Part shown: piece after piece, positions 31,386-63,947 of the stretch
Position numbering within the stretch: position 1 is the first letter of the stretch
How the letters are laid out: each line of letters begins with the position of its first letter
Notes under the pieces: generated by a model
Told to the model about the DNA's origin: nothing
The model's database searches: none
What the model saw: only the letters and a program-made list of their open reading frames with translations
Translations under genes and position numbers: made by a program
Assembly: GCA_052388375.1 (NCBI GenBank)
Contig: JBQTIG010000043.1
Span: 6,865-70,864 of the forward strand
DNA from: Planctomycetaceae bacterium
GTDB lineage: Bacteria > Planctomycetota > PLA2
Length of the DNA: 64,000 nucleotides
Reading direction: 5' to 3'

Positions 31386-31401
31386 TGGAGCAGTTCTTGC
31401 A
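31386..31401 (+). promoter_or_regulatory. candidate sigma-54-type promoter upstream of the porin/Rieske/Nap operon
   Basis: TGGAGCAGTTCTTGCA has correct GG-N10-GC spacing and a perfect TTGCA -12 box, in a locally AT-richer stretch. It lies only about 12 nt before the porin ATG, so the transcript would be nearly leaderless, and that lowers my confidence. Confidence 0.35.
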
Positions 31402-31412
31402 TCACGGCGGGA

Positions 31413-32825
31413 ATGATCCGCGCCGCCTGGGTCGCCCTCTTGCTCGCTGCCGCAACCGACCCCGCAACGGCGGGGGATTTCGCCTCCGGGGTGGATCTCG
31501 AGCGCCGCAACGCCCTGCTCGAGGAGCGGGTGCGCAAGCTCGAAGCCGGAGCCATGGCGGAGGAGGTCGAACGCTATCTCGCGGATTATCCCGCGCAGCC
31601 CTTCACGGCGGAGGGGGCATCCTCCCTGCTCCCTGGGGGTCTGCGGCTGAAAATCTCCGGGGAGGCGCGCATCCGCGAGGAGGTGCAGCACCGTCTCTAC
31701 GCGCCGATGGATCCGGCGGGCAGCCGCAGCCTTGACTTCGCCCACATGCGCACACGGCTCCGGTTCGACATCGACGTCGACGACAACCTTGGCGTGGTCG
31801 TGGAGCTGCAGGACGTGAGGATCCTCGGCGAGGGGGGATCCACCACCGCCGACGCGGAGGGACTGGATCTGAAACGCGCGACGATCGTGGTCCGGCGCAT
31901 CGGCGGCCACCCGGTGACGGTCGAGGCGGGCCGCTTCGTGATGGCGTACGGGGACCAGCGGCACATCGGCCATCTGGAATGGTTCGATCAGGGGCGCACC
32001 TACGACGGTGCGCGCGTCGCCTGGGCGCCCGACTCCCTCTTCGTGGACCTGTTCGCCGTGCGGGTGCGCGAAACCGTGGTTCCGGACGACGACCAGACGC
32101 TTCTGGGCCTCTACGGGGGCACGAAGGGCTGGCGTTCCTGGCTCGACGGGGAGGCGTACGTGCTGGTGCTGAGCGACACCAAGCCCGCCGCGGGCGAACT
32201 CGGCCCGGGCGACACGCTCTTCTTCACCCTCGGACTGCGGCTGGCGGGCAAGCAGGAGGGGTGGGACTACGCCCTCGAGATCTCCTTCCAGACCGGGGAG
32301 CGCAACGGGGACGACCTCTCCGCATTCGCCTTCGCGTGGAAGGGCGGGCGGACGTTCACCGAGGCGCCGGGTACGCCGCGCGCCGGGCTCGAGATCGACT
32401 TCGCCACTGGGGACGACGATCCCACCGACGGGAAGAACCGCCAGTTCCAGACGCTGTTCCCCACCAACCACATCCACTACGGATTCGCCGACCTCCTGGG
32501 TTGGAGCAACCTCCTCGACCTGCGCGTCAGCCTGAGCGCGCGACCGCGCGAGAAGGTGCTCCTCACCCTTGATTTCCACCACTTCCGGCGCGTGGAGGAG
32601 CGAGGCGCCTGGATCAACGCGGGCGGCGCGCTCATCCGGCCGGGCGCCGCCGGGACCTCGAGCCATCTCGGGGACGAGATCGATTTCACGGTGACCTGGA
32701 CACCCAAGAAGTCGCTCACGATTCTCTTTGGCTGGTCGCTGTTCTTGCCGGGTGGGTTCGTCGCGCAGACCGGCGCCGACCCCACCGCCCGGTTTCTCTA
32801 TCTCGAGATACGCGTTACCTTCTGA
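31413..32825 (+). CDS. outer-membrane beta-barrel porin, alginate-export (AlgE-like) family
   Basis: Signal peptide MIRAAWVALLLAAATDPATA, an N-terminal coiled coil, then alternating beta-strand patterns and a C-terminal ...YLEIRVTF with terminal Phe. Confidence 0.65.
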   Translation: MIRAAWVALLLAAATDPATAGDFASGVDLERRNALLEERVRKLEAGAMAEEVERYLADYPAQPFTAEGASSLLPGGLRLKISGEARIREEVQHRLYAPMDPAGSRSLDFAHMRTRLRFDIDVDDNLGVVVELQDVRILGEGGSTTADAEGLDLKRATIVVRRIGGHPVTVEAGRFVMAYGDQRHIGHLEWFDQGRTYDGARVAWAPDSLFVDLFAVRVRETVVPDDDQTLLGLYGGTKGWRSWLDGEAYVLVLSDTKPAAGELGPGDTLFFTLGLRLAGKQEGWDYALEISFQTGERNGDDLSAFAFAWKGGRTFTEAPGTPRAGLEIDFATGDDDPTDGKNRQFQTLFPTNHIHYGFADLLGWSNLLDLRVSLSARPREKVLLTLDFHHFRRVEERGAWINAGGALIRPGAAGTSSHLGDEIDFTVTWTPKKSLTILFGWSLFLPGGFVAQTGADPTARFLYLEIRVTF

Positions 32826-32829
32826 GGCC

Positions 32830-33396
32830 ATGGAGGAGAGCATGAGCCACGATGCGAGTCGGCAAGGCCGCCGCCGCTTTCTCGGGACCGCCTCCGGCGT
32901 AGTCATGGCAGGGGGGCTCATCGGCGGCTACGGCACCTTCCTGGGCTACGCCGGCAGGTTTCTCTATCCCGTGGGCGGCGAGCCCCTCGGCTGGTTGTAC
33001 GTGGCGGAGGCGGCGCGCATCGCGCCGGGCGCCTCGCTCACCTACCGCACTCCCGCCGGCGCCACAGTGGTGATCGCGCGGCAGGGATCCACCGGCGAGG
33101 CCGCGGATTTCCTCGCCCTCTCCTCCACCTGCCCGCATCTCGGCTGCCAGGTGCACTGGGAATCGCAGAACAACCGGTTTTTCTGCCCCTGCCACAACGG
33201 CGTCTTCGACCCGTCGGGCAAGGGGATCGGCGGGCCCCCCGGGGACGCGGGCCAGAGTCTTCCGCGCTACCCGCTGCGGATCGAACGCGGGCTCCTCTAC
33301 ATCGAGGTGCCGCTGCGTACCCTCGCGGACGCGGGGGAGGGGGGCGGGGGCCTCACGCGGCCGGGCCATGACGCCTGCCTGAAGGGGCTCGCCTGA
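32830..33396 (+). CDS. Rieske [2Fe-2S] protein of a cytochrome bc/b6f-type complex (Tat signal)
   Basis: The twin-arginine motif RRRFLGTA is followed by a TM helix. The cluster boxes are CPHLGC and CPCHNGVF. Confidence 0.9.
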   Translation: MEESMSHDASRQGRRRFLGTASGVVMAGGLIGGYGTFLGYAGRFLYPVGGEPLGWLYVAEAARIAPGASLTYRTPAGATVVIARQGSTGEAADFLALSSTCPHLGCQVHWESQNNRFFCPCHNGVFDPSGKGIGGPPGDAGQSLPRYPLRIERGLLYIEVPLRTLADAGEGGGGLTRPGHDACLKGLA

Positions 33397-33397
33397 C

Positions 33398-34447
33398 ATG
33401 GGATCGGTCGCCGGATGGTTCCGGGAGCGGCTCCCGGTTTCGGGAGCCGCGCTGCGCGAGCTGACCAACGAACCGGTCCCCAACCATCTCAAGCGCTGGT
33501 GGTTCTGCCTGGGCGGGACGCCGCTCTACCTGTTCGTCGTCCAGATCGTGACGGGAATCCTGCTCGCCTTCTACTACCAGCCCGCGCCCTCCACCGCCTA
33601 CGAGTCGGTCCGCTTCATCACCGAGGAGGCCGCCTTCGGCTGGTACATCCGGGGCATCCACCGATGGGCCGCGACCTTCATGATCGCCGCCGTGATCCTG
33701 CACCAGATGCGGGTCTTCTTCACCGGAGCCTACCGCAAGCCGCGCGAGATCAACTGGATCGTGGGGATGTTCCTGTTGCTCTGCACGCTCTTGCTCGGCT
33801 TTTCCGGCTACAGCCTGGTCTTCGAGCAGTTGAGCTACTGGGGCGCCACGGTGGCCGGCAACATCACGGGGAGCGTCCCCCTGGTGGGCACCTTCCTCAA
33901 GCGACTCATGCTCGGCGGCGACGCGTACAACGAGCACACGCTCTCGCGGCTCTTCATCCTCCATGGGGCGGTGCTGCCGGTGACGATGGTCTTCCTCCTC
34001 GCGATCCACATCACGATCATCCGGCTGCAGGGCGTGACGGAGTTCCGGTTCGAGGACGAGCCTGCCGGAAAGCCGACCCACTTCCGCTTCTTCCCGGACC
34101 ACCTCTACACCGAGCTGATCCTGGGTCTGGTGCTCATGATCCTCCTGACCGCTTGCGCCACCATCTTCCCCGCCTCCATGGGGCCCCGGGCGGATCCCCT
34201 CTCCACGCCCGAGGCGATCAAACCGGAGTGGTTCTTCTACGTCGCGTTCCGCTGGCTCAAGCTGTTTCCCGGCACTCTGGCGGTGCTCTCCACGGGACTG
34301 ATCGTGTTCACGATGATCGTCTGGCCCTTCGTGGACGCCCGCATCCGCCGGCGCCGCCCCGATTCCGAGTTCAGCGTCGGGGTCGGCGTCGTCGCCGCCC
34401 TCTCCATCATCGGGCTGACCGTTTGGGAAGCCCTCGTCAAGCACTGA
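33398..34447 (+). CDS. cytochrome b (fused b6 + subunit IV type)
   Basis: WFRERL...KRWWFCLGG keeps the Cys found in the FYCLGG heme-ci site of cytochrome b6. His pairs occur in helix B (IHRWAA...ILHQMRVF) and helix D (ILHGAV...AIHITI). KPEWFFY is the PEWY-type Qo motif. Confidence 0.9.
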   Translation: MGSVAGWFRERLPVSGAALRELTNEPVPNHLKRWWFCLGGTPLYLFVVQIVTGILLAFYYQPAPSTAYESVRFITEEAAFGWYIRGIHRWAATFMIAAVILHQMRVFFTGAYRKPREINWIVGMFLLLCTLLLGFSGYSLVFEQLSYWGATVAGNITGSVPLVGTFLKRLMLGGDAYNEHTLSRLFILHGAVLPVTMVFLLAIHITIIRLQGVTEFRFEDEPAGKPTHFRFFPDHLYTELILGLVLMILLTACATIFPASMGPRADPLSTPEAIKPEWFFYVAFRWLKLFPGTLAVLSTGLIVFTMIVWPFVDARIRRRRPDSEFSVGVGVVAALSIIGLTVWEALVKH

Positions 34448-34457: not shown

Positions 34458-36038
34458 ATGACCCTGCGCAGCAAGCAATTCCTGATCGGCGCCCTGGGCG
34501 GCGTCTTCCTCCTCTCGCTCGTGCTCGTGCAATGGCTGGAGGTGGTGAGGCGGCAGGAGGAGTCGGGGGCGGCGCCGCGCACGATCGCGGTTCCCGCCAG
34601 TTCCGCCTCCTGCGTCAGCTGCCACCGCGAAAGCTCCCCCGGCATCATCGACCACTGGATGGGGAGCACGCATGCCGAGAAGGGGGTGGGCTGCGTCGAG
34701 TGCCATCAGGCGGAGGGCGCGGACGCCGACGCCTTCTCGCACTACGGCGCGCTCATCGCGACGGTGGTGACGCCGCGGGACTGCGCGCGCTGCCACCAGC
34801 AGGAGGCGGACGAGTTCGGGCGGAGCCACCACGCCGCCGGAGGCAACATACTCGCCTCCCTCGACAACTACCTCGCCGAAACGGTGGAGGGCATGCGCGG
34901 CTTCTTCAATCCGCACGGCCCGACCCCCGGCCGGCAGGATTTCCAGGATGTGAACGGCTACGCCAGCGCCGTCCTTGGCTGCTTGCAGTGCCACGGGAGC
35001 AAGGTCGCGCTCCAGGCGACCGACGGCAGCCGCATCTCGGTGCACGATCTCAAGCCCGACAAGGACGGGAAGCCGACCAACCTGGACGCCGTGGCACGGA
35101 TCGCGAAGGGCACGGATGGTCGCCCGATATTCCATCCGGGCACCTGGCCCAATACCGGCATCGGGCGGCTGAACCTGGACGGGTCGCGCGGATCCTGCTC
35201 GGCCTGCCACTCCCGCCACGACTTCTCGCCCCGGCGTGCGCGCCAGCCGGAGAACTGCGGCAAGTGCCATCTGGGGCCCGACCATCCCCAGAAGGAGATC
35301 TACGAGGAGTCCAAGCACGGCGTCGCCTACCGCGACCTGCGCGAGCAGATGAACCTCGACTCCCCCACCTGGGTGCTCGGCGTCGACTACACCCAGGCGC
35401 CCACCTGCGCCACCTGCCACATGTCGGGCCACAAGCGCAACGGCGGCAAGATGACCCACGACCCCGGCGAGCGCATCTCCTGGACCAACCGTCCCCCCGT
35501 CAGCCTTCCGATGGACACCGACCTCAACCACGCGGTGGTGAAGGAGGCCGATCCCGCCAAGCGGCGGGCGCTCATCCACGACACCTGGCAGCAGAAACGC
35601 GAGCGCATGCAGCAGGTCTGCAGCCACTGCCACACGCCGGATTACATCACCGGCTTCTACAAGCAGTACGACGACCTGATCCAGCTCTACAACGAGAAGT
35701 TCGCCCGGCCGGGCACGTCCATCATGCAGGCGCTGCGCAACGCCAAGCTCATCACGCCGCCCGAGTTCGACGAGGAGATCGAGTGGACCTGGTTCTACCT
35801 TTGGCACCACGAGGGGCGGCGCGCGCGGCACGGCGCGTCGATGATGGCACCTGACTACACCCACTGGCACGGCATGTACGAGGTGGCCGAGCGCTTCTAC
35901 ATCGAGCTGATCCCGCAGGCGCGCGAGATCGCGGCGCACGCCCGCGCCGAGGGCAAGGTCGCGGAAGCCGACGCGGTGGAGGCGGCGATCGATGCGGTCC
36001 TCGCGAGGCCCGAGCACCGCTGGAAGGAGGGGAAGTAG
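34458..36038 (+). CDS. membrane-anchored octaheme cytochrome c, hydroxylamine-oxidoreductase (HAO) family
   Basis: N-terminal TM helix (FLIGALGGVFLLSLVLV). Eight CxxCH motifs are present (CVSCH, CVECH, CARCH, CLQCH, CSACH, CGKCH, CATCH, CSHCH). The HAO-like block CGKCHLGPDHPQKEIYEESKHGVAYR is also there. The C-terminus reads WHHEGRRARHGASMMAPDYTHWHG. Confidence 0.85.
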   Translation: MTLRSKQFLIGALGGVFLLSLVLVQWLEVVRRQEESGAAPRTIAVPASSASCVSCHRESSPGIIDHWMGSTHAEKGVGCVECHQAEGADADAFSHYGALIATVVTPRDCARCHQQEADEFGRSHHAAGGNILASLDNYLAETVEGMRGFFNPHGPTPGRQDFQDVNGYASAVLGCLQCHGSKVALQATDGSRISVHDLKPDKDGKPTNLDAVARIAKGTDGRPIFHPGTWPNTGIGRLNLDGSRGSCSACHSRHDFSPRRARQPENCGKCHLGPDHPQKEIYEESKHGVAYRDLREQMNLDSPTWVLGVDYTQAPTCATCHMSGHKRNGGKMTHDPGERISWTNRPPVSLPMDTDLNHAVVKEADPAKRRALIHDTWQQKRERMQQVCSHCHTPDYITGFYKQYDDLIQLYNEKFARPGTSIMQALRNAKLITPPEFDEEIEWTWFYLWHHEGRRARHGASMMAPDYTHWHGMYEVAERFYIELIPQAREIAAHARAEGKVAEADAVEAAIDAVLARPEHRWKEGK

Positions 36039-36039
36039 C

Positions 36040-38406
36040 GTGGCGGAGAGCGATCGCCGCGAGTTCCTGCGCCGCTGCGGTATCGCCGCTGCCGGCATCG
36101 CAGCGTTCTCCTGCGGCGACCGCGAGGAGGCGGAGGAGATCGCCCGCCGGCAGGCCGCCGGAGGGCCCTATCCCGCCGACCTCTCCTGGGGCAAGGCCGC
36201 GTGCCGCTACTGCGGCACCGGCTGCAGCGTCGAGGTGGGCGTGCACGAGGGGAAGGCGGTTGCGGTGCGCGGCGACGCCGCGAGCCCGGTGAACAAGGGC
36301 CTGCTCTGCGTGAAGGGCTACCACCTGCCCGCCATGCTCTACGGCAAGGACCGGCTGCTTTTCCCGATGCTGCGGCTGGCGGACGGGTCGCAGAAGCGCA
36401 TTGCGTGGGACGAGGCCCTCGACCTCGTGGCACGCAAGTTCGCCGGGGCGCTGCAGGATCACGGCCCCGACGCCGTGGCGGTCTACGGCTCGGGGCAGTG
36501 GACGGTCTTCGACGGCTATGCCGCGCTCAAGTGGGTGAAGGGCGGCATGCGGTCCAACCAGCTGGAACCCAACGCGCGCCTCTGCATGGCGAGCGCGGTC
36601 ATGGGCTACATGACGCAGTTCCAGAGCGACGAACCCATGGGCTGCTACGACGACTTCGAGCTGGCCGACGACTTCGTCTTCTGGGGCCACAACGCCGCCG
36701 AGATGCACCCGGTGCTCTTCAGCCGCATGCTGGAGCGCAAGCGGTCCAACCCCGGCGTACGGCTCGTCGATCTCGCCACGCGGCGGACGCCCACCAGCGA
36801 CTACTGCGACCTCTACGTCGAATTCCGCCCGGGCAGCGACCTCGCCCTCGCCAACGGCATCCTCCACCTGCTGCTGAAGCAGGACAAGGTCGACCGCGCC
36901 TTCGTGGCGGAGAACGTCGTCTTCAAGCGCGGCGTCGAGGAGCTGAAGGAGATCGGCTACGGCTGCTTCGGCGAGCAGGCGGAGCGCTACACCTTCCAGG
37001 ACAAGGCCACCGACTCCTCCCTGGAGGAGCTGGCGAAGTTCCTGGAGGACTACGACCCCGCCACCGTGAGCCGCATCAGCGGCGTCCCCGAGGCGCAGCT
37101 GCGCCTCTTGGCCGACCTCTACGGCGACCGCAACCGCAACACCGTCTCCACCTGGTGCATGGGGGTCAACCAGCACACCCGCGGCACCTGGATGAACAAC
37201 CTCATCACCGACCTGCACCTGATCACCGGCAAGATCTCCCGCCCGGGCAGCAATCCGCTCAGCGTGACGGGCCAGCCGTCGGCCTGCGGCACCGTGCGTG
37301 AGGTGGGGACGCTCGCCAACCGGCTCCCCGCCGACATGGTGGTCACCAATCCCGAACACCGCGCCCTGGCGGAGAAGATCTGGGGGCTCCCCGCGGGAAC
37401 GATCAACCCCAAGCCCGGCGACCACGCCGTCGACATGTTCCGCGCGTTCGCGCGCGGCGACATCAAGACCATGTGGGTGCAGACGACCAACCCCTGGGTC
37501 ACGATCCCCAACCTGCACCGCATCGACCGGAAGCCGGGGGACGGCCGCTTCCTCGTGGTGAGCGACATCTACCCCACGCCCACCACGGACGTGGCCGACC
37601 TCGTGCTTCCGGCCGCCGCCTGGATCGAGCGCGAGGGGATGTTCGGCAACACGGAGCGGCGCACGCAGCACTGGGACAAGCTCCTCGAGCCCCCGGGCGA
37701 GGCGCGCGAGGACGCCTGGCAGATCATCGAAGTGGCCAAGCGCATGGGCATGGGCCATCTCTTCCCGTGGCCCGAGAACGACTGGCACAAGCCGATGTTC
37801 GAGGAGTACCGGAGCTTCACCCTCGGCCACGGCAAGGACCTCGCCTCCTACGACCAGCTTCGCGCCACCCACGGCGGCCTCCGCTGGCCCGTGGTGGAGG
37901 GCCGGGAGACCCGCTGGCGCTACGCCGCCGGCCACGACCCCTACGTGAAAAAGCCCAAAGGGGTCCACTTCTACAAGGCCAAGGGGTATGGCGAGAAGGC
38001 CGCCTTCTGGCTGCGCCCCTACCACCCGCCGGCGGAGGAGCCCGATGCGGAGTACCCGTTCTGGCTCTGCACCGGGCGCGTGCTGGAGCACTGGCATACC
38101 GGCTCCATGACCCGGCGCGTGAAGCAGCTGCACCAGGCGGTGCCCGGGGCCTACGTCGAGGTGAACCGCGCCGACGCGATGAAGATGGGGCTCAAGAGCG
38201 GGGACAAGGTGCGCGTGAAGAGCCGGCGCGGGAGCGTCGTTCTCCCCGCCCTGGTGGACGGCCGCGGGAAGCCGCCGCGGGGATCGCTGTTCGTGCCCTT
38301 CTTCGACGAGGGGCTGCTCATCAACCGGGTGACCCTCGACGCCATGTGCAACATCAGCAAGGAGCCGGACTACAAGAAGTGCGCGGTGAGGCTCGAACGC
38401 GCGTGA
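36040..38406 (+). CDS. napA: periplasmic nitrate reductase catalytic subunit
   Basis: GTG start 1 nt after the HAO-family stop. It has a Tat signal (SDRREFLRRCGIAAAG), a [4Fe-4S] motif (CRYCGTGCSV...LCVKG) and the Mo-ligand context PNARLCMASAV. The C-terminus reads EPDYKKCAVRLERA. Confidence 0.92.
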   Translation: MAESDRREFLRRCGIAAAGIAAFSCGDREEAEEIARRQAAGGPYPADLSWGKAACRYCGTGCSVEVGVHEGKAVAVRGDAASPVNKGLLCVKGYHLPAMLYGKDRLLFPMLRLADGSQKRIAWDEALDLVARKFAGALQDHGPDAVAVYGSGQWTVFDGYAALKWVKGGMRSNQLEPNARLCMASAVMGYMTQFQSDEPMGCYDDFELADDFVFWGHNAAEMHPVLFSRMLERKRSNPGVRLVDLATRRTPTSDYCDLYVEFRPGSDLALANGILHLLLKQDKVDRAFVAENVVFKRGVEELKEIGYGCFGEQAERYTFQDKATDSSLEELAKFLEDYDPATVSRISGVPEAQLRLLADLYGDRNRNTVSTWCMGVNQHTRGTWMNNLITDLHLITGKISRPGSNPLSVTGQPSACGTVREVGTLANRLPADMVVTNPEHRALAEKIWGLPAGTINPKPGDHAVDMFRAFARGDIKTMWVQTTNPWVTIPNLHRIDRKPGDGRFLVVSDIYPTPTTDVADLVLPAAAWIEREGMFGNTERRTQHWDKLLEPPGEAREDAWQIIEVAKRMGMGHLFPWPENDWHKPMFEEYRSFTLGHGKDLASYDQLRATHGGLRWPVVEGRETRWRYAAGHDPYVKKPKGVHFYKAKGYGEKAAFWLRPYHPPAEEPDAEYPFWLCTGRVLEHWHTGSMTRRVKQLHQAVPGAYVEVNRADAMKMGLKSGDKVRVKSRRGSVVLPALVDGRGKPPRGSLFVPFFDEGLLINRVTLDAMCNISKEPDYKKCAVRLERA

Positions 38407-38957
38407 GGGGGGCGGGGGCGCTCCTCGTCTGCCTGTTGGCCGCGGGATGCGGCGAGCCGCGCCTCGGGCCCTCCGTGGCGGTGCCGGGACGCGCGGGGGC
38501 GGTCAAGACCTCCGCCGCCGACCGCGCGGAGCGGCGCGCCTACGACGGCGCGCCCCCCGTCATCCCCCACGAGAACTTCGGCATGGGCTGCGTGAACTGC
38601 CACTCCAAGGAGGGGTTGCACCTCCCTGACATCGGCTTCGCTCCCCCCATGCCCCACGAGGTGACGCCGGGACTGAGCGCCCTGAGCCGCTGCACGCAAT
38701 GCCACGTCTTCCGCGAGACGCGGGAGCTCTTTCGCGAGAACGGATTCCTTGGGCTGCGCCAGGACCTGCGCCGCGGCCGGCGCCTGCACCTCCTCGCCCC
38801 CCCCGTGATGCCCCACCCCCTCTTCATGCGCGAAAATTGCTCCGCCTGCCACGACGGACCCGCGGCCCGGGAGGAGGTGCGCTGTTCCCACCCCGAGCGG
38901 GCGCGCTGCCAGCAGTGCCACGTCGCGGAGACCGCCACGGACGAGTTCGTCCGCTGA
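38403..38957 (+). CDS. tetraheme cytochrome c lipoprotein, tandem NapB-like
   Basis: The GTG overlaps the napA stop (GTGA). A lipobox is present (LLAAGC). Two successive units have the pattern APPV[IM]PH...CxxCH...CxQCHV (CVNCH/CTQCH, then CSACH/CQQCH). Confidence 0.75.
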   Translation: MRGAGALLVCLLAAGCGEPRLGPSVAVPGRAGAVKTSAADRAERRAYDGAPPVIPHENFGMGCVNCHSKEGLHLPDIGFAPPMPHEVTPGLSALSRCTQCHVFRETRELFRENGFLGLRQDLRRGRRLHLLAPPVMPHPLFMRENCSACHDGPAAREEVRCSHPERARCQQCHVAETATDEFVR

Positions 38958-43256: not shown

Positions 43257-43349
43257 CGCACCGGCGCCCCGCGCGGTCGGGCCTGGACTCCCGGCAAGGA
43301 GGCGGATGCGGCGGGGGAGGAGGGCCGAAACGCAAGCCTGGCCCCCCCT

Positions 43350-55847: not shown

Positions 55848-55863
55848 CGGCACATCTGTTGCG
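55848..55863 (+). promoter_or_regulatory. sigma-54-type promoter upstream of the NXR-like operon
   Basis: CGGCACATCTGTTGCG matches GGCAC-N5-TTGC exactly. It lies 32 nt upstream of the ATG, with a GGGAGG RBS in between. Confidence 0.6.
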
Positions 55864-57469: not shown

Positions 57470-60400
57470 ATGGAGCGCAGGGATTTCCTCAAGGCGGCCG
57501 GCGCCGGCGTCGCCTTCACCGCCTTCGGCCCCTTCCGTCTGTTCGGGCTCGAGCCGATCGAGGTCGGCAACCCCCTCGCGAGCTATCCCGACCGCGGGTG
57601 GGAGAAGATCTACCACGACCAGTACGCCTACGACGGGAAGTTCCAGTGGGTCTGCTCCCCCAACGACACCCACGCCTGCCGCGTGATGGCCTACACCCGC
57701 AATGGCGTCATCACGCGGATGGGCTCCACCTACGACTACCAGAACTACGCCGACCTCTACGGCAACAAGGCGACGCCCAACTGGAACCCGCGCCAGTGCG
57801 CGAAAGGCTACACCTTCCACCGCGTGGTCTACGGACCTTACCGCCTCAAGCACCCCATCGTGCGCAAGGGTTGGAAGCGCTGGGCGGACGACGGCTTCCC
57901 CTACCTCACCCCCGAGAACCGCGCCCAGTACAAGTTCGACGCGCGCGGCACGGACGAGTTCGAAAGGGTGTCGTGGGATGACGCCCTCGGCTACGTGGCC
58001 AAGGGACTCCGGCAGATCGCGACCACCTATTCGGGGGCCGAGGGCGCGCAGCGGCTACGGGACCAGGGCTATCTGCCCGAGATGATCGACGAGATGGGCG
58101 GCGCGGGCACGCGGACGCTCAAGTTCCGAGGCGGGATGGGGCTCCTCGGCGTGTTCGGCAAGTACGGCATGTACCGGCTCGCCAACTCGATGGCGCTGCT
58201 CGACGACCAGATCCGCAAGGTGGGCGCCGCCGGAGCGAAGGCGGGCCGCACCTGGTCCAACTACACCTGGCACGGGGACCAGGCGCCCGGCCATCCCTGG
58301 GTCCACGGGCTCCAGACCTCGGAGTCCGACTTCCACGACCTGCGCTACTCCAAGCTCATCATCATGGACGGCAAGAACCTGGTCGAGAACAAGATGACCG
58401 ACTCGCACTGGTTCATCGAGTGCATGGAGCGGGGCGCAAAGGTCGTGGTGATCGCCCCGGAGTACGGCCCGCCCTCCACGAAGGCGGACTACTGGATTCC
58501 GATCCGTCCGCAGACCGACGCTGCCCTCTGGCTCGGCATCACGCGCCTCATGATCGACCGGGGCCAGTACGACGAGGGGTTCCTCAAGCGCTTCACGGAC
58601 TTCCCGCTCCTCGTCCGCAAGGACACGCTCCGTCGCCTGCGCGCCGCCGACGTCTTCCCCGACTACAAGAGCGACCTCTCGGCCGACGGGCCCTCCATGG
58701 CGCGCCAGCACTTCGTGAAGGAGGAGCACGACGCCCTCGGGGACTACGTGGTCTGGGACGCCCGCACGCAGTCGCTCAAGCCGCTCACGCGCGACGACGT
58801 GGGGGGACGGCTGGAGCGGAAGGGCATCGACCCCGCCCTCGACAAGGAGCTGACGATCACGACGCAGGACGGGCGGCGGGTGGAGGTGGCGACGCTCTGG
58901 AGCCTCTACCAGGTCCACCTCAAGGACTACGACCTCGACACCGTCTGCGAGATCACCCACTCGCCCCGCGAGCTGATCGTGCGCCTCGCCGACGACATCG
59001 CTTCCATCAAGCCCGTGGCGATCCACCAGGGCGAGGGAATCAACCACTGGTTCCACGCCACGGAGATGAACCGGGCCGCCTACCTCCCCCTCATGCTCAC
59101 CGGCAACATCGGCGTGCGCGGCGCGGGCTGCCACACCTGGGCCGGCAACTACAAGGCGGCGCTCTTCCAGGGCTCGCCCTGGACCGGGCCCGGCTTCAAG
59201 GGCTGGGTGGCCGAGGACCCGTTCCACCCCCAGCGCGACCCCCTGGCGCATGGGCGCGACGTCCCGGTGAAGGGTTACACGAAGGACGAGGAACCCGCCT
59301 ACTGGGACCACGGCGACATGCCCCTCGTGGTGACGACGCCCAAGTACGGACGCCGCAATTTCACGGGCAAGACCCACATGCCCACCCCGACGAAGTCGAT
59401 CCTCTTCAACAACGTCAACCTCATCAACAATTCCAAATGGGCCTACGGGGTGATCCACAACGTCAACCCGAAGGTCGAGTTGATCGTCTCCATCGACATC
59501 CAGATGACCGCCTCGGTGGAGTACGCCGACATCGCGCTCCCGGCCAACTCCTGGGTCGAGTTCGAGGGGCTCGAGGTGACCGCCTCCTGCTCCAACCCGT
59601 TCCTCCAGATCTGGAAGGGCGGCATCCCTCCGGTGTTCGACACCCGCGACGACCTGGCGATCCTCGCCGGGATCGCCGCGAAATTGGCGGAGACGACTGA
59701 GGACGCGCGGTTCACCGACTACTTCAAGTTCGAGTACGAGGGCCGGCGGGACGTCTACATCCAGCGGCTGCTCGACACCTCCACGACCACCTCCGGCTAC
59801 AAGCTCGACGACATCATGGCGGGCAAGTACGGCGTCCCCGGCGCCGCCCTCATGCTCTTCCGCACCTACCCGCGCGTGCCTTTCTACGAGCAGATCCACG
59901 ACGACGAGCCCTTCTTCACGGACCACGGCCGTCTCCAGTCCTACACGGACGTTCCGGAGGCGATCGAGTACGGCGAGAACTTCATCGTCCACCGCGAGGG
60001 GCCGGAGGCGACGCCCTACCTGCCCAACGTGATCCTCTCCACCAACCCCTTCGTGCGGCCGGACGACTACGGGATCCCGCTCGACGCGGAGCGCTGGGAC
60101 GACCGCACCGTGCGCAACGTGAAGATGTCGTGGGCCCAGGTGAAGCAAACCCGCAACTTCCTCTGGGAGAAGGGCTTCCGCTTCTACATGCTCACCCCGA
60201 AGACGCGCCACCGCGTCCACAGCCAGTGGTCCAACGTCGACTGGCATCTCATGTACGACTCCAACTTCGGCGACCCCTACCGCGTCGACAAGCGCAGTCC
60301 CGGAATCGGCGAGCACCAGCTCCACATCAATCCGGAAGCGGCGCGCGCGCTGGGCATCGAGGACGGGGACTACGTCTACGTGGACGCCAATCCGGCCGAC

Positions 60401-60898
60401 CGTCCCTATCTCGACGCCAAGCCCTCCGACCCCTTCTACAAGGTGGCGCGCTGCATGGTCCGCGTGAAGTACAACGCAGCCTACCCCTTCGACACCGTGA
60501 TGATGAAGCACGCGCCCTTCATCGCCACGGAGCGGAGCGTGAAGGCCCACGAGACGCGAGCCGACGGGCGCGCCCTGAGCGAGGGCACCGGCTACCAGGC
60601 CAATTTCCGCTACGGCTCCCAGCAGTCGGTGACCCGCAACTGGCACATGCCGATGCACCAGACCGACACGCTCTTCCACAAGAAGAAGGCGGCCGTCGGG
60701 TTCCTGTTCGGCGGCGAGGCGGACAACCATGCCATCAACACGGTCCCCAAGGAGACGCTCGTGCGCGTCACGAAAGCGGAGGACGGGGGGCTCGGGGGCG
60801 AGGGGGTCTGGGCCGTCGCGACTACCGGGTTCACGCCCGCCCACGAGAACGAGGCCATGCGCCGTTACCTGGGCGGCGACTTGACGAAGGAGGCCTAA
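57470..60898 (+). CDS. nxrA: periplasmic (Tat) molybdopterin alpha subunit, Nitrospira/anammox NxrA-type (NarG-like) nitrite oxidoreductase / nitrate reductase
   Basis: AAGGAGG RBS and a Tat signal (MERRDFLKAAGAG). The 1142 aa length is typical of periplasmic NxrA. The N-terminal FS0 region KFQWVCSPNDTHACRVMAYTRNG has the layout C-x3-D-x3-C. The body is a large MopB domain. The catalytic direction cannot be read from sequence. Confidence 0.85.
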   Translation: MERRDFLKAAGAGVAFTAFGPFRLFGLEPIEVGNPLASYPDRGWEKIYHDQYAYDGKFQWVCSPNDTHACRVMAYTRNGVITRMGSTYDYQNYADLYGNKATPNWNPRQCAKGYTFHRVVYGPYRLKHPIVRKGWKRWADDGFPYLTPENRAQYKFDARGTDEFERVSWDDALGYVAKGLRQIATTYSGAEGAQRLRDQGYLPEMIDEMGGAGTRTLKFRGGMGLLGVFGKYGMYRLANSMALLDDQIRKVGAAGAKAGRTWSNYTWHGDQAPGHPWVHGLQTSESDFHDLRYSKLIIMDGKNLVENKMTDSHWFIECMERGAKVVVIAPEYGPPSTKADYWIPIRPQTDAALWLGITRLMIDRGQYDEGFLKRFTDFPLLVRKDTLRRLRAADVFPDYKSDLSADGPSMARQHFVKEEHDALGDYVVWDARTQSLKPLTRDDVGGRLERKGIDPALDKELTITTQDGRRVEVATLWSLYQVHLKDYDLDTVCEITHSPRELIVRLADDIASIKPVAIHQGEGINHWFHATEMNRAAYLPLMLTGNIGVRGAGCHTWAGNYKAALFQGSPWTGPGFKGWVAEDPFHPQRDPLAHGRDVPVKGYTKDEEPAYWDHGDMPLVVTTPKYGRRNFTGKTHMPTPTKSILFNNVNLINNSKWAYGVIHNVNPKVELIVSIDIQMTASVEYADIALPANSWVEFEGLEVTASCSNPFLQIWKGGIPPVFDTRDDLAILAGIAAKLAETTEDARFTDYFKFEYEGRRDVYIQRLLDTSTTTSGYKLDDIMAGKYGVPGAALMLFRTYPRVPFYEQIHDDEPFFTDHGRLQSYTDVPEAIEYGENFIVHREGPEATPYLPNVILSTNPFVRPDDYGIPLDAERWDDRTVRNVKMSWAQVKQTRNFLWEKGFRFYMLTPKTRHRVHSQWSNVDWHLMYDSNFGDPYRVDKRSPGIGEHQLHINPEAARALGIEDGDYVYVDANPADRPYLDAKPSDPFYKVARCMVRVKYNAAYPFDTVMMKHAPFIATERSVKAHETRADGRALSEGTGYQANFRYGSQQSVTRNWHMPMHQTDTLFHKKKAAVGFLFGGEADNHAINTVPKETLVRVTKAEDGGLGGEGVWAVATTGFTPAHENEAMRRYLGGDLTKEA

Positions 60899-60899: not shown

Positions 60900-61155
60900 G
60901 TGCCCAAGAACGAGCCGGACGCCACCGATCCGATGACCCTTACCGGCGTCGAGGTGCCCGCGACGGAGGAGGACGTCGTGGCCATGGCGACCGCCTTTGC
61001 CGAGGAGTTCGCCTTCAGCGGCTGGGACGCTCCGCGCATCGCCGCGATGTTCCAGAACCCGTTCTATGCCGGACCGCATCTCGCCTGGCGCACGCTCGGC
61101 AAGGCGCGCGTGACGGCGATCATCGAGCAGTCCGTGCGTCCCCTCCGGAGGAACC

Positions 61156-61172
<17 letters not shown>
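60900..61172 (+). CDS. small hypothetical protein (90 aa) between the alpha and beta genes
   Basis: GTG start 7 nt after a perfect AAGGAGG. The amino-acid composition is balanced (AEEFAFSGWDAPRIAAMFQNPFYAGPHLAW). It has no signal peptide and overlaps the beta-subunit start by 17 nt. Confidence 0.5.
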
Positions 61173-62382
<1,210 letters not shown>

Positions 62383-62391
62383 GAGGCGGTC

Positions 62392-63093
62392 ATGAACACC
62401 TCGGAACGCAACGTCCAACGCGCCGTTCTCTGGAGTTGGCTCGGCCACGCCTTCCGCCGGGACGCGCCCGTCGAGGACCGTTCCACCCTCGAGCGCGCGC
62501 TTCCCGCCGCCTCGCGCGCCTTCGGCCTCGACGCGACCGCCGCGCTCGCCGCCCGCGCCGGAACCGTCGATCCGGCCTCCGCCTACGACCGGCTGTTCGG
62601 CCACACGGTGCGGGGGCCCTGCCCCACCTACGAAGGGGAGTATGGCGAGCCGCGCGGCTACCGCTTCGCGCACGAGATCGGGGATCTCCAGGGCTTCTAT
62701 GCCGCGTTCGGTCTGCGACCCGCGCGGCGGGCGGGCGAACGGGCCGACCACATCGGCACCGAGTGCGAGTTCTACGCCTTCCTCGCGCTCAAGGAAGCGT
62801 GCGCCGAGGAGCTCCACGGCGCGGAAAAGGCCGAACGCTGCCGCGAAGCACGCGCGCGCTTCTTGCGCGAGCATCTCGGCCGCTTCGCGCCCGCGTTGGC
62901 CGCACGGGTGCGGCGACGCAGCGAGGAGCCCTGCTTCGTCGAGGCCGCCAAGCTCCTCGAGGAGGCCCTCAAGGTGGAGTCGGAGGCGTTGGGCGTGGAG
63001 ATCGGACCCGACGACCTCGGGCTGCGCGCCGACGCCGGGAGCCCGGAAGACGCCTGCATCAGCTGCTCCGCGTCGACCGAGACGCCTCGATGA
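62392..63093 (+). CDS. TorD/NarJ-family redox-enzyme maturation chaperone
   Basis: AGGAGG RBS. It contains YDRLF....GPCPTYEGEYG and ADHIGTECEFYAFL, typical of TorD/NarJ/DmsD-like chaperones. Confidence 0.75.
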   Translation: MNTSERNVQRAVLWSWLGHAFRRDAPVEDRSTLERALPAASRAFGLDATAALAARAGTVDPASAYDRLFGHTVRGPCPTYEGEYGEPRGYRFAHEIGDLQGFYAAFGLRPARRAGERADHIGTECEFYAFLALKEACAEELHGAEKAERCREARARFLREHLGRFAPALAARVRRRSEEPCFVEAAKLLEEALKVESEALGVEIGPDDLGLRADAGSPEDACISCSASTETPR

Positions 63094-63947
63094 AAATCGT
63101 CTTCGATCCCCTGCTCGTCGAGGAGGCCGTGTACCTCCTGGCGCGCGCCGACCAGGGACGCTGGAAGGAGATGCGCGCGCGCATCGACCCGCTCTACGGG
63201 GGCGAGGAACGGCCGATGGCGATCGCGCACCTGACCCTGTTCCGGGCGTGGGGCGCGGCGGCGCCGTTCGAGGAGCTCCTCCCGCTGGCGGAGGGCTCGT
63301 CCCGCATGCTCGTGGCCCGTCCGCGATCGCCCTCGGACGAGGGAGCGGAACTTCTGGTGGGAGCGGAGCGAACGGTCCTCGTGCGGGTCGCACCGGAGCG
63401 GCTCCTCGAGCCGGCCGCGCTGCGCCGCTTCCTGCGTCACGAGATGCGCCATGTGTCCGACATGCTCGATCCCGCCTTCGGCTACCACCCGGACCTTGGC
63501 GTAAAGGGCCGTACGAAGGCGCAGGAGAACCTCGTGCGCGATCGCTACCGCACGCTCTGGAACCTCGCGATCGACGCGGTGGAGGAGCCTCCCGTGCCCT
63601 CCGAGGTGCGCCGGCGGCAGCTCGCGCGCGCCTTCTCCGCCCTCGAGCCGGACTCGTTGCGGCAGTTGACGTCCGCCTTCGCCGATCCCGCTCGCCGCCG
63701 CCACGAGGAGTTGGCCTCCGCCGCCCGCAACCCGTGGGCTTGGCTCGGCGTCCCGCGCCGCCACGGTCCCGCGGCGGGAGAGCCGTGCCCCCTCTGCGGG
63801 TTCCCGACCCATGCCTGGTCCCCCGCTCCCCCCACCGACGCCATCCAGTCCCACTACCCCGACTGGAGTCCCGCGGAGGGCGTCTGCGTGCAGTGTGCGG
63901 ACATGCTACGCACCGCGCAGCCGTGCCCCCCCGCCCCCCTCTCCTGA
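63090..63947 (+). CDS. hypothetical protein with HExxH motif and C-terminal Cys4 zinc-ribbon-like motif
   Basis: The ATG overlaps the chaperone stop (ATGA). This is the real part of track ORF 61683..63947. It contains RFLRHEMRHVSDMLDP, and near the C-terminus CPLCG...CVQC. Confidence 0.5.
   Translation: MKIVFDPLLVEEAVYLLARADQGRWKEMRARIDPLYGGEERPMAIAHLTLFRAWGAAAPFEELLPLAEGSSRMLVARPRSPSDEGAELLVGAERTVLVRVAPERLLEPAALRRFLRHEMRHVSDMLDPAFGYHPDLGVKGRTKAQENLVRDRYRTLWNLAIDAVEEPPVPSEVRRRQLARAFSALEPDSLRQLTSAFADPARRRHEELASAARNPWAWLGVPRRHGPAAGEPCPLCGFPTHAWSPAPPTDAIQSHYPDWSPAEGVCVQCADMLRTAQPCPPAPLS

What the first reader, a model, noticed from the sequence alone, without database searches (positions are those of the whole stretch)
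31386..63947. Anammox/nitrifier-like electron-transfer parts list concentrated in 33 kb
The following all sit within 33 kb:
- NapAB.
- An NXR-type enzyme.
- A Rieske/cyt b complex.
- Two HAO-family octaheme proteins.
- A further octaheme-TPR cytochrome.
- A membrane-anchored penta-heme-like cytochrome.

They are interleaved with a giant cyclase-kinase sensor and a sigma-54 activator. I saw no hydrazine synthase, ammonia monooxygenase, NirS/NirK, Nor or Nos signature in the window. The combination resembles the accessory respiratory toolkit of anammox and Nitrospira, placed in a ~70% GC genome. It suggests an undescribed nitrogen-oxide metabolism. Examples would be nitrate to nitrite to NH2OH/NO interconversion, or facultative nitrite oxidation. 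Alternatively it may be a horizontally assembled respiratory island.
Basis: inference. Interest (0 to 1): 0.7.

Follow-up and report, generated by a model that had tools for sequence, protein, structure and literature searches.

The report
Conserved nitrate/nitrite respiratory gene neighbourhood
This 33-kb stretch really does hold a periplasmic nitrate reductase, an anammox/Nitrospira-type nitrite oxidoreductase, a Rieske/cytochrome b complex and two reductive-type hydroxylamine-oxidoreductase-like cytochromes, but the same gene mix has already been reported from uncultured Planctomycetota genomes and no new chemistry is shown.

Summary
In detail: every listed part is present at 31.4-63.9 kb. 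There are three corrections. "NapB" is a tetraheme tandem-NapB-like lipoprotein. The cyclase domain of the kinase is weakly supported. The kinase, a GNAT gene and a DegT-like gene are lineage-specific insertions.

The region is four conserved units, not one system:
- A: porin, Rieske, cyt b, anchored octaheme, NapA, tetraheme cytochrome.
- B: membrane multiheme cytochrome plus an FG-GAP/ASPIC protein.
- C: PAS-sigma54 activator, 8-heme HEAT/TPR cytochrome, compact HAO-like octaheme.
- D: nxrC(diheme c + heme b)-A-small-B-D-X.

NxrA matches Kuenenia NxrA over its full length (1736 bits). Both HAO-family proteins have His where oxidative HAO/HDH carry the cross-linking Tyr, so they are the reductive type.

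The A-B-C-D layout recurs on related metagenome contigs. Composition and codon usage match the rest of the window, so this is not a recent island. Unit A occurs in at least four other genomic contexts and its octaheme family is very large. Unit D also occurs in Rokubacteria. nxr + napAB + hao in non-anammox Planctomycetota MAGs is published (Suarez 2023).

Most likely function: periplasmic nitrate/nitrite respiration plus a reversible NXR. The direction of NXR and the taxon remain unresolved.

The parts
31413..32825 (+). Unit A: outer-membrane porin, alginate-export family
   Evidence: PF13372, 192 bits. It precedes Rieske in L084, L085, L086, L088 and L089.
32830..33396 (+). Unit A: Rieske 2Fe-2S subunit with an RRRF Tat-type N-terminus
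   Evidence: PF00355. The CPHLGC...CPCH motifs are visible in the sequence.
33398..34447 (+). Unit A: cytochrome b, a b6-like N-part fused to a subunit-IV-like C-part, with 6 hydrophobic segments
   Evidence: PF00033 168 bits and PF00032. NCBIfam cyt b6 and ExtP-like matches. Hydropathy.
34458..36038 (+). Unit A: N-terminally anchored octaheme HAO-family cytochrome (OCC-1), reductive type
   Evidence: 8 CXXCH and PF13447. Best solved relative is IhOCC 4qo5 (E 1e-44), then Kuenenia HAOr 6h5l_A. It has the GPDH motif. It has His469 in 'PDYTHWHG' at the column of the cross-link Tyr.
36040..38406 (+). Unit A: NapA, periplasmic nitrate reductase catalytic subunit (Tat signal)
   Evidence: NF010055 954.8 bits, above the 904 cut-off. 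73-81% identical in syntenic loci.
38403..38957 (+). Unit A: tetraheme lipoprotein, a tandem NapB-like module
   Evidence: 4 CXXCH and an LAAGC lipobox. Internal repeat with E 1e-5. The NapB Pfam match is below cut-off.
39000..43256 (+). Ser/Thr kinase with TPR repeats and a weak cyclase-like N-terminus; lineage-specific insertion
   Evidence: PF00069 and TPR families. Partial LipJ cyclase match. Absent from L084/L003, L085 and L089.
43359..44543 (+). GNAT (Acetyltransf_6) gene; lineage-specific insertion
   Evidence: PF13480, 113 bits. Absent from syntenic relatives.
44625..47450 (-). Unit B: FG-GAP / ASPIC-UnbV / TPR protein with an N-terminal anchor
   Evidence: PF13517 and PF07593. It overlaps the stop of the cytochrome gene. 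The pair is conserved in L003/L084, L173 and L089.
47447..49768 (-). Unit B: membrane-anchored multiheme cytochrome (4 CXXCH + 1 CX4CH)
   Evidence: No solved relative. 65-68% identical in relatives.
49830..49843 (-). Sigma54 -24/-12-like element GGCAC-N5-TTGT upstream of unit B
   Evidence: One of only 3 GGCAC-N5-TTG[CT] sites in the window.
49879..51246 (+). Unit C: PAS - sigma54 AAA+ - HTH enhancer-binding protein, with a Cys cluster in the PAS domain
   Evidence: PF00158, 241 bits. C71, C77 and C84 are invariant in 5 orthologues. It lies next to nxr in L001.
51250..53103 (+). Unit C: periplasmic 8-heme cytochrome with a HEAT/TPR C-terminal domain
   Evidence: 8 CXXCH plus TPR and HEAT families. 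It directly precedes the compact HAO gene in all five other contexts read (L003, L173, L089, L090, L091).
53100..54248 (+). Unit C: compact (382 aa) periplasmic HAO-family octaheme (HAO-2), reductive type
   Evidence: PF13447. AF2 model pLDDT 89; top fold match is Kuenenia reducing HAO 6h5l_A. GPDH is invariant. His358 occupies the cross-link Tyr column.
54623..55759 (+). DegT-like aminotransferase fragment; variable spacer gene
   Evidence: Partial PF01041 match. Replaced by other genes in L003 and L173.
55848..55863 (+). Sigma54 -24/-12-like promoter CGGCAC-N5-TTGCG, 32 nt upstream of nxrC
   Evidence: The same motif lies upstream of nxrC in L003 and L173.
55895..57466 (+). Unit D: NxrC-like fusion of a diheme cytochrome c domain and an EB_dh heme b domain, with a Sec signal and no membrane anchor
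   Evidence: Residues 32-260 match 6h5l_B (kustc0457), E 2e-36. Residues 310-520 match 7b04_C (NxrC), E 1e-17. PF09459.
57470..60898 (+). Unit D: NxrA, Mo-bisPGD catalytic subunit (Tat signal)
   Evidence: 7b04_B, 1736 bits over the full length. 61% identity over residues 2-576, with a CSPNDTHAC FS0 motif identical to Kuenenia.
60900..61172 (+). Unit D: conserved 90-aa protein of unknown function
   Evidence: 49-66% identical in L001, L003 and the Rokubacteria locus L092. No family hit.
61156..62382 (+). Unit D: NxrB, Fe-S subunit
   Evidence: 7b04_A, 562 bits over the full length.
62392..63093 (+). Unit D: NxrD / TorD-type chaperone
   Evidence: PF02613 and TIGR03482.
63090..63947 (+). Unit D: conserved 285-aa protein (RHE[LM]xHVxDMLDPxFGY motif and a C-terminal CxLC...CxxC)
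   Evidence: 37-59% identical in L001, L003 and L092. No family hit. The AF2 model is unusable.

Best explanation
The stretch is a long-resident respiratory gene neighbourhood, conserved across related genomes, in an uncultured bacterium with about 70% GC. The nearest named relatives of its marker proteins are Planctomycetota MAGs. It consists of four separate conserved transcription units for periplasmic nitrate/nitrite redox chemistry.

Unit A (inferred mechanism): quinol is oxidised by a Rieske/cyt b complex. (Futalosine-type menaquinone synthesis genes, which would make this menaquinol, were seen only in the related locus L084.) The usual c1/f subunit is replaced by a membrane-anchored octaheme of the HAO family. 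Electrons pass to a tetraheme NapB-like lipoprotein and on to NapA, which reduces nitrate to nitrite. The octaheme lacks the P460 cross-link but keeps the catalytic-heme Asp-His motif. It probably reduces nitrite itself, either to ammonium like IhOCC and epsilon-Hao, or to NO like Kuenenia HAOr. The Rieske/cyt b complex takes the place of NapC, NapGH and NrfH.

Unit C encodes a soluble partner pair: an 8-heme HEAT/TPR cytochrome and a compact, cross-link-less HAO. This is a second periplasmic reductase for nitrite, NO or hydroxylamine.

Unit D is a soluble periplasmic NXR of the Kuenenia/Nitrospira type. Its NxrC carries two c-type hemes, so it exchanges electrons with the cytochrome c pool rather than directly with quinone. 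It is probably reversible: nitrate reduction when oxygen is absent, nitrite oxidation when a high-potential acceptor is available.

Units B and D carry sigma54 -24/-12 elements. They are probably switched by the adjacent PAS-sigma54 activator, whose Cys-rich PAS domain may sense O2 or NO.

Shown: gene identities, domain architectures, absence of the cross-link Tyr, conserved synteny, native composition.
Inferred: electron path, substrates and products, direction of NXR, regulation.
For: - Gene identities.
- Cross-link column: His in both HAO-like proteins, against Tyr in NeHAO and HDH and Trp in HAOr. GPDH is invariant.
- No NapC, NapGH or NrfH in the window.
- Unit A is conserved as one block (operon inferred) in L084, L085, L086, L087 and L089. 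Rieske-cytb-octaheme adjacency also holds for 40-49% identical homologues (L151-L158).
- A-B-C-D layout: L084+L003 (one 74,954-bp contig) carries all four units. L173 carries B-C-D. L085 carries A-B. L089 carries A, B and C rearranged.
- The NXR six-gene operon is identical in layout in a Rokubacteria MAG.
- Sigma54 elements: 2 of the 3 GGCAC-N5-TTG[CT] sites in 64 kb lie in the two short upstream regions. The nxrC one is conserved in L003 and L173.
- Composition is native.
- Literature: Caldithrix Nap + Rieske/cytb + epsilon-Hao is read there as a nitrate-ammonification route (PMC5317091). IhOCC is a nitrite-reducing octaheme without P460 and HAOr reduces nitrite to NO (PMC9250108, PMC12485887). 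Kuenenia NXR is bidirectional, and the cultured planctomycete Thermogutta, a nitrate reducer, falls in the same NarG/NxrA clade (PMC10732223).
Against: - No biochemical or expression data exist for any protein of this lineage.
- The product of the octahemes (NH4+, NO or NH2OH) cannot be read from sequence.
- The presence of NapA makes a second nitrate reductase look redundant. That favours an oxidative role for NXR.
- Units B, C and D occur apart from each other in other genomes (L001, L090, L091, L092), so co-location does not prove functional coupling.
- The taxon is unresolved: PEPCK has at most 66% identity to any GTDB representative found.
- The broad sigma54 pattern with 2 mismatches is not enriched.
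Confidence: 0.6

Rival explanations
1. The organism is a facultative nitrite oxidiser. NXR runs oxidatively and passes electrons through the diheme c domain of NxrC to a cbb3-type or other oxidase. Nap and the HAO-like reductases serve anoxic phases.
For: - NxrA, NxrB and NxrC are full-length homologues of a bona fide NXR.
- NxrC is soluble and fused to c-type hemes.
- A FixO/cbb3-type gene (weak Pfam hit) lies within the 10-kb flanks in L001 and L089.
- A separate NapA already covers nitrate reduction.
- Suarez 2023 proposes exactly this for Planctomycetota MAGs (PMC10732223).
Against: - Enzymes of this clade act as nitrate reductases in Thermogutta and Methanoperedens (PMC10732223).
- No CO2-fixation genes or oxidase genes are in the window.
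- The same operon is widespread in lineages never shown to nitrify.
Confidence: 0.25
2. NXR and the compact HAO form a direct electron-transfer couple. Nitrite oxidation by NXR would drive nitrite/NO reduction by HAO-2 (nitrite disproportionation), or the reverse. The link would be the kustc0457-like diheme domain fused to NxrC.
For: - The N-terminal domain of NxrC is a specific homologue of kustc0457, the redox partner of Kuenenia HAOr (E 2e-36).
- HAO-2's top fold match is HAOr itself.
- Units C and D are adjacent in three related genomes (window, L003, L173).
- They sit beside one sigma54 activator.
Against: - The diheme-NxrC fusion also occurs where no HAO-2 is nearby (L001, L092).
- HAO-2 pairs occur without NXR (L089, L090, L091).
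- HAO-2 has its own conserved 8-heme partner.
- No Nor, Nos or NO-dismutase gene is in the window to pull the reaction.
Confidence: 0.07
3. The region is a recently acquired, horizontally assembled respiratory island.
For: - The individual units have patchy, multi-phylum distributions.
- An IS630-type transposase lies 25 kb upstream.
- Lineage-specific insertions (kinase, GNAT, DegT-like) interrupt the cluster.
Against: - GC is 0.70 against 0.71.
- Tetranucleotide frequency correlation is 0.99 and z-score correlation 0.89.
- RSCU correlation is 0.97-0.99 for the conserved units, equal to the internal control.
- No tRNA, integrase or flanking repeats were found.
- The layout is conserved in relatives with 53-87% protein identity.
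Confidence: 0.08
4. The octahemes and multiheme cytochromes are mainly electron wires for metal or sulfur respiration and have no catalytic role in N chemistry.
For: - One relative comes from the Fe-rich Chocolate Pots hot spring (PMC6137239).
- The Unit B cytochrome and the 8-heme protein have no characterised relatives.
- IhOCC's host respires sulfur (from my own knowledge, not checked here).
Against: - Both HAO-like proteins keep the catalytic heme-4 GPDH motif.
- OCC-1 is directly followed by napA in most of the contexts read (L084, with a small DUF2231 gene between them, L085, L086, L087, L089; not L088).
- All solved relatives act on N-oxides.
Confidence: 0.12

Closest known systems
Kuenenia stuttgartiensis NXR (PDB 7B04; NxrABC)
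   Same: NxrA and NxrB are full-length homologues (1736 and 562 bits). The FS0 motif CSPNDTHAC is identical. There is a Tat signal and periplasmic orientation. The heme b EB_dh domain of NxrC is present, as is a TorD-type chaperone.
   Different: NxrC carries an extra N-terminal diheme cytochrome c domain. The operon has two extra conserved genes (90 aa and 285 aa). The genome is about 70% GC. There are no anammox genes in the window. Tubule formation and direction of catalysis are unknown.
NXR-type operons of non-anammox Planctomycetota, KSB1 and Rokubacteria MAGs (Suarez et al. 2023, PMC10732223; RIFCSP Rokubacteria GCA_001790205.1)
   Same: Same NxrA clade (75-87% identity). The six-gene order is identical in the Rokubacteria locus read (L092). 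Co-occurrence with napAB, hao and oxygen reductases is already reported for the Planctomycetota MAGs.
   Different: Here the Nap, HAO-like and NXR units lie in one conserved 33-kb layout with a shared sigma54 activator. That layout is not described in that paper as far as I read it.
Caldithrix abyssi nap locus with Rieske/cyt b and epsilon-Hao (PMC5317091)
   Same: Nap genes, a Rieske/cyt b pair and a cross-link-less HAO-family octaheme sit in one locus. NapC is absent. The locus is read as a nitrate-to-ammonium route.
   Different: Caldithrix has NapM, NapGH and NapF and a soluble epsilon-Hao. Here there is no NapGH or NapF, a tandem-NapB tetraheme instead, and the octaheme is N-terminally anchored and lies between cyt b and napA.
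Kuenenia Rieske/cyt b complex R/b-3 with Kuste4574, and HAOr (kustc0458/0457, PDB 6H5L)
   Same: A Rieske/cyt b complex encoded with an HAO-like octaheme. The HAO-like proteins lack the Tyr cross-link. A kustc0457-like diheme domain is present.
   Different: No NAD(P) oxidoreductase or hexaheme subunits. The kustc0457-like domain is fused to NxrC and is not encoded next to the HAO.
IhOCC, Ignicoccus hospitalis octaheme (PDB 4QO5)
   Same: It is the best solved relative of OCC-1 (E 1e-44). It is membrane-associated, has no P460, and is a nitrite-reducing octaheme per PMC9250108.
   Different: OCC-1 keeps Asp-His (GPDH) where IhOCC has Asp-Val. The context here is bacterial and Nap-linked.

Membership tests
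Periplasmic NXR (Nitrospira/anammox type; type II DMSO-reductase family) | NxrA full-length homology to a characterised NXR alpha subunit | tested here: met
   7b04_B: 1736 bits, residues 2-1140. 61% identity over residues 2-576.
Periplasmic NXR (Nitrospira/anammox type; type II DMSO-reductase family) | Tat signal on NxrA (periplasmic active site) and a C-x3-D-x3-C FS0 motif | tested here: met
   The MERRDFLKAAG N-terminus gives a PF10518 match at E 5e-4, 20.2 bits, below the 22.7 cut-off. CSPNDTHAC is identical to Kuenenia in the alignment. That this is the FS0 motif is from my own knowledge of the family.
Periplasmic NXR (Nitrospira/anammox type; type II DMSO-reductase family) | NxrB Fe-S subunit and NxrC heme b (EB_dh) subunit encoded with NxrA | tested here: met
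   NxrB against 7b04_A: 562 bits. NxrC C-domain against 7b04_C: E 1e-17, plus PF09459. NxrC is fused to a diheme c domain.
Periplasmic NXR (Nitrospira/anammox type; type II DMSO-reductase family) | Physiological nitrite oxidation | not testable with these tools
   Direction cannot be read from sequence. Members of the clade work in both directions (PMC10732223).
Nap periplasmic nitrate reductase | NapA catalytic subunit | tested here: met
   NF010055: 954.8 bits against 904. TIGR01706: 930.1 against 930.55, just below.
Nap periplasmic nitrate reductase | Diheme NapB partner | tested here: not met
   The partner has 4 CXXCH. PF03892 scores 18.6 bits, below the 25.1 cut-off. No NCBIfam or PDB match. 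It is a tandem NapB-like repeat.
Nap periplasmic nitrate reductase | NapC or NapGH quinol dehydrogenase | tested here: not met
   None in the window. A Rieske/cyt b pair lies in the same gene block instead.
HAO family (PF13447), oxidative branch (HAO/HOX/HDH) | Eight c-heme motifs and the HAO fold | tested here: met
   8 CXXCH in both proteins. PF13447 scores 76.5 and 74.5 bits. The HAO-2 model has TM 0.72-0.77 to HOX, HDH and HAOr.
HAO family (PF13447), oxidative branch (HAO/HOX/HDH) | Tyr that cross-links to heme 4 (P460) | tested here: not met
   NeHAO Tyr491 (precursor numbering) and the HDH Tyr align with His358 of HAO-2. OCC-1 has His469 in the same motif. They therefore belong with the reductive HAOr / IhOCC / epsilon-Hao kind.
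Rieske/cytochrome b complex | Rieske 2Fe-2S protein plus a dihaem cytochrome b encoded together | tested here: met
   PF00355, and PF00033 + PF00032. The genes are adjacent.
Rieske/cytochrome b complex | Cytochrome c1 or f as the third subunit | tested here: not met
   There is no c1/f gene. The next gene is the anchored octaheme.
Anammox / ammonia-oxidiser core pathway | Hydrazine synthase, hydrazine dehydrogenase or ammonia monooxygenase | tested here: not met
   No such family was hit in any called gene of the window. The rest of the genome was not available.

The most novel reading that the evidence does not exclude
In this lineage the compact cross-link-less HAO and the NXR may form a co-regulated, directly coupled redox pair. 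The link would be the HAOr-partner-like (kustc0457-like) diheme domain fused to NxrC. Nitrite oxidation to nitrate would then supply electrons for nitrite/NO reduction. That is a nitrite-disproportionating metabolism, or one based on NO/hydroxylamine, in a non-anammox bacterium. Such a metabolism has been predicted on thermodynamic grounds but never observed.
Probability: 0.07. Interest if true: 0.8.

Novelty: new member of a known kind. Interest (0 to 1): 0.42.

Why it matters
NXR-type enzymes are widespread in uncultured, non-nitrifying phyla, and their direction of catalysis in nature is an open question for nitrogen budgets. This locus gives a compact, conserved test case. It holds NXR, a separate Nap chain fed by a Rieske/cyt b-octaheme complex, and a second reductive HAO, next to a sigma54 activator whose likely promoter elements precede at least two of the units. 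It points to concrete experiments:
- Which signal the Cys-rich PAS activator senses.
- Whether the Rieske/cytb-octaheme complex is a proton-motive nitrite reductase.
- Whether NXR runs forwards or backwards.

It does not by itself reveal a new pathway.

Tried and rejected
- Taxonomy via PEPCK in GTDB genomes.
- The window's own NxrA is not on record by exact look-up.
- Cluster look-ups for names of the closest NCBI relatives returned no names.
Its only use was to show that Rieske-cytb-octaheme adjacency extends to 40-49% homologues.
- My first reasoning that HAO-2 lacks the cross-link Tyr because its C-terminus is truncated was wrong. The profile alignment shows the column lies inside the protein and holds His.
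- The broad sigma54 pattern with 2 mismatches is not enriched (15 found, 15.4 expected). Only the stricter GGCAC-N5-TTG[CT] core is informative.
- Rfam and tRNA scans found nothing.
- No terminal inverted repeats were found around the IS630-type transposase.
- The AF2 model of the 285-aa NXR-operon protein, run without an alignment, has pLDDT 46 and is unusable.
- PDB sequence searches for the 8-heme/TPR protein, the membrane cytochrome and the tetraheme protein gave no informative relatives.
- Pfam does not support the cyclase domain of the kinase.

Full report
**Gene map.** The window is about 70% GC, so raw ORF lists are crowded with spurious frames. I called genes from third-position GC periodicity and scanned them against Pfam and NCBIfam. 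Between 31.4 and 63.9 kb the plus strand carries the following genes:
- A porin of the alginate-export family.
- Rieske and cytochrome b.
- An N-terminally anchored octaheme of the HAO family (OCC-1).
- NapA and a tetraheme lipoprotein.
- A 1418-aa Ser/Thr kinase with TPR repeats, then a GNAT gene.
- A PAS-sigma54 activator.
- An 8-heme HEAT/TPR cytochrome, then a compact 382-aa HAO-family octaheme (HAO-2).
- A DegT-like gene.
- The nxr genes: nxrC-like, nxrA, a 90-aa gene, nxrB, nxrD and a 285-aa gene.

The minus strand carries a membrane multiheme cytochrome followed by an FG-GAP/ASPIC/TPR protein (44.6-49.8 kb). Heme motifs, signal sequences and hydrophobic segments are listed.

**Checking the observation.**
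- NapA passes the NCBIfam equivalog cut-off (954.8 against 904).
- NxrA matches the structurally solved Kuenenia NXR alpha subunit over its whole length (1736 bits). Identity is 61% over the N-terminal half, with an identical CSPNDTHAC motif.
- NxrB matches 7b04_A over its full length.
- Both HAO candidates hit PF13447 well above cut-off and have eight CXXCH motifs.
- The AF2 model of HAO-2 (pLDDT 89) superposes on the Kuenenia reducing HAO, HOX, HDH and Nitrosomonas HAO at TM 0.72-0.77.

Three corrections apply. The "NapB" is a tetraheme made of two NapB-like modules and scores below the NapB cut-off. The cyclase domain of the kinase is weakly supported: NCBIfam gives a partial match and Pfam gives none. 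One interleaved gene is a GNAT acetyltransferase. No family typical of Hzs, Amo, NirS/K, Nor or Nos appears anywhere in the window.

**Are the HAO-like proteins oxidative or reductive?** The feature that defines oxidative HAO, HOX and HDH is a Tyr that cross-links to heme 4. A profile of 47 HAO-2 relatives was aligned to the solved structures. The Nitrosomonas Tyr491 (precursor numbering, "GWTYTEG") and the HDH Tyr ("ATYSDG") fall on His358 of HAO-2 ("DHTHWLG"). That His is at least 90% conserved in the family. Kuenenia HAOr, which lacks the cross-link and reduces nitrite to NO (PMC12485887, PMC9250108), has Trp there. OCC-1 has the same motif, "PDYTHWHG", conserved down to 40% identical homologues. 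Its best solved relative is IhOCC, a nitrite-reducing octaheme without P460 (PMC9250108). Both proteins keep the Asp-His pair after the heme-4 motif (GPDH). They are therefore reductive-type, catalytically plausible HAO relatives. They are not hydroxylamine or hydrazine oxidisers and not mere wires. An earlier idea of mine, that HAO-2 lost the Tyr by C-terminal truncation, was wrong and is withdrawn.

**Conservation of the clustering.** Exact-protein look-ups of the closest homologues gave the following contexts.
- One 74,954-bp JGI contig (loci L084 + L003) has the same order: porin-Rieske-cytb-OCC-NapA-tetraheme, then FG-GAP and the membrane cytochrome on the other strand, then sigma54 activator-multiheme-HAO-2, then the nxr six-gene operon. 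It lacks the kinase, the GNAT gene and the DegT-like gene.
- L173 keeps units B, C and D.
- L085, from the Chocolate Pots hot spring in Yellowstone (PMC6137239), keeps A and the start of B.
- L089 has A, B and C rearranged, with no NXR within 10 kb.
- Protein identities to the window are 53-87%.

The kinase, GNAT and DegT-like genes are insertions specific to this genome.

**Each unit also exists on its own.**
- The OCC-1 family is very large: 7977 of the 8000 candidates scored had E <= 1e-10. The best 120 are 72-78% identical and include Planctomycetota and Acidobacteriota MAGs and contigs of 7.9-12 Mb.
- The full unit A block (operon inferred) occurs in a 7.9-Mb genome behind an Rrf2 regulator. 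It also occurs without Nap.
- HAO-2 relatives are far fewer (282 hits). In all five other contexts read, an overlapping gene for a 480-655-aa multiheme protein, usually with TPR or HEAT repeats, precedes them. These contexts sit next to an alternative complex III (L090) or other cytochromes (L091).
- The nxr six-gene operon, including the diheme-fused nxrC and the two unknown genes, is identical in layout in a Planctomycetota MAG (L001) and in a Rokubacteria MAG (L092; alignments).
- NxrA homologues at 74-77% identity come from Limnocylindrales, KSB1, Binatia, Methylomirabilia and Rokubacteria.

**Island or native?** GC is 0.714 for 1-31 kb and 0.703 for 31-64 kb. Tetranucleotide frequencies correlate at 0.99 and TETRA z-scores at 0.89. 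Relative synonymous codon usage of each conserved unit correlates at 0.97-0.99 with the upstream housekeeping genes. That matches the internal control of 0.99. No tRNA, Rfam element or bounding repeat was found. A recent horizontal island is unlikely. Ancient transfer of single units between phyla is likely, given their distributions.

**Regulation.** The strict sigma54 core GGCAC-N5-TTG[CT] occurs only three times in the window.
- One site lies 32 nt upstream of nxrC (55848-55863). It is conserved upstream of nxrC in L003 and L173.
- One lies in the 110-nt divergent region upstream of the membrane cytochrome.
- The third lies next to a separate sigma54 two-component system at 13.8 kb.

The adjacent activator has a PAS domain with three invariant Cys residues and two further Cys residues kept in most of the five orthologues compared. 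This is reminiscent of Fe-S-binding PAS sensors such as NreB. That comparison is from my own knowledge and is a lead only.

**The NxrC fusion.** The N-terminal 230 residues of the NxrC-like protein are a specific homologue of kustc0457 (E 2e-36), the diheme partner of Kuenenia HAOr. The C-terminal domain matches Kuenenia NxrC (E 1e-17). The protein has a Sec signal and no membrane anchor. NXR here should therefore talk to the periplasmic c-type cytochrome pool. The tempting reading is that this domain docks the neighbouring HAO-2. It is weakened because the fusion is present where HAO-2 is absent (L001, L092) and HAO-2 occurs without NXR (L089-L091).

**Most likely function.**
- Unit A is a quinol-to-nitrate chain, and probably also a quinol-to-nitrite chain. 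Rieske/cyt b replaces NapC, NapGH and NrfH, and the octaheme replaces cytochrome c1. This matches the proposal made for the Nap-Rieske/cytb-epsilon-Hao locus of the nitrate-ammonifying Caldithrix abyssi (PMC5317091). It also parallels the Kuenenia R/b-3 complex, which contains the HAOr homologue Kuste4574 (PMC12485887).
- Unit C is a second, soluble reductase pair.
- Unit D is a reversible NXR. Its physiological direction cannot be decided from sequence. Kuenenia NXR is bidirectional, Thermogutta and Methanoperedens are nitrate reducers that carry clade members, and Suarez et al. hypothesise nitrite oxidation for their Planctomycetota MAGs (PMC10732223).
- Unit B has no assignable role.

**Comparison with what is known, and novelty.** The combination of an NXR-type enzyme with napAB, hao and oxygen reductases in non-anammox Planctomycetota MAGs is published, including Nap and putative Nxr genes upstream of a shared gene cluster in two MAGs (PMC10732223). 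The Nap + Rieske/cytb + reductive HAO locus is also published (PMC5317091). As far as I could find, three things are not described. The first is the conserved four-unit layout with a shared sigma54 activator. The second is the compact HAO plus 8-heme/TPR pair. The third is the two extra conserved genes of the NXR operon. I therefore rate this a new member of a known kind with some undescribed details.

**Taxonomy.** The taxon remains unresolved. The best named relatives of NxrA (83%) and HAO-2 (68%, partial) are Planctomycetota MAGs. For OCC-1 an Acidobacteriota MAG (74%) is marginally ahead of a Planctomycetota MAG (73%). A syntenic relative carries the DUF1501/DUF1800 genes common in Planctomycetota. 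PEPCK finds nothing closer than 66%.

Noticed in passing
window 49879-51246 (residues 71-87 of the protein): The PAS domain of the sigma54 activator carries a Cys cluster. C71, C77 and C84 are invariant, and C80 and C87 are kept in most of the five orthologues compared. It may be an Fe-S (NreB-like) O2/NO sensor.
   Followed up: partly
window 63090-63947 and 60900-61172: Two genes of unknown function are conserved in NXR operons across phyla (Planctomycetota-like contigs and a Rokubacteria MAG). One is a 285-aa protein with an RHE[LM]xHVxDMLDPxFGY motif and a C-terminal CxLC...CxxC. The other is a 90-aa protein lying between nxrA and nxrB. Neither has a family or structure match.
   Followed up: partly
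window 44625-49768 (minus strand): A membrane multiheme cytochrome and an FG-GAP/ASPIC/TPR protein have overlapping stop and start codons. The pair is conserved in four related contigs and is preceded by a sigma54-like element. Its role is unknown.
   Followed up: partly
window 13758-19451 and 13774-13787: A second sigma54 system lies upstream of the finding: two hybrid histidine kinases and a response-regulator-type sigma54 activator. The third GGCAC-N5-TTGC site of the window sits just upstream of a CBS-domain gene there.
   Followed up: no
window 5511-6608 (and 4200-5500): An IS630-type DDE_3 transposase lies next to about 1.3 kb with no clear coding periodicity. No terminal inverted repeats were found.
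   Followed up: partly
window 39000-44543 and 54623-55759: The kinase-TPR gene, the GNAT gene and the DegT-like gene are absent from the syntenic relatives. They look like insertions into an otherwise conserved layout.
   Followed up: yes
L003 3850-3963: In the closest long relative, a perfect inverted repeat of about 35 nt fills the spacer between the sigma54 activator gene and the multiheme gene. In the window these two genes are only 3 nt apart.
   Followed up: no
window 20220-22350: Two divergently oriented tandem-Usp (universal stress protein) genes, a PLD-type phospholipase gene and an HSP20 gene (30421-31116) lie upstream of the respiratory cluster. L085 and L086 also carry an HSP20 gene upstream of their unit A.
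   Followed up: no
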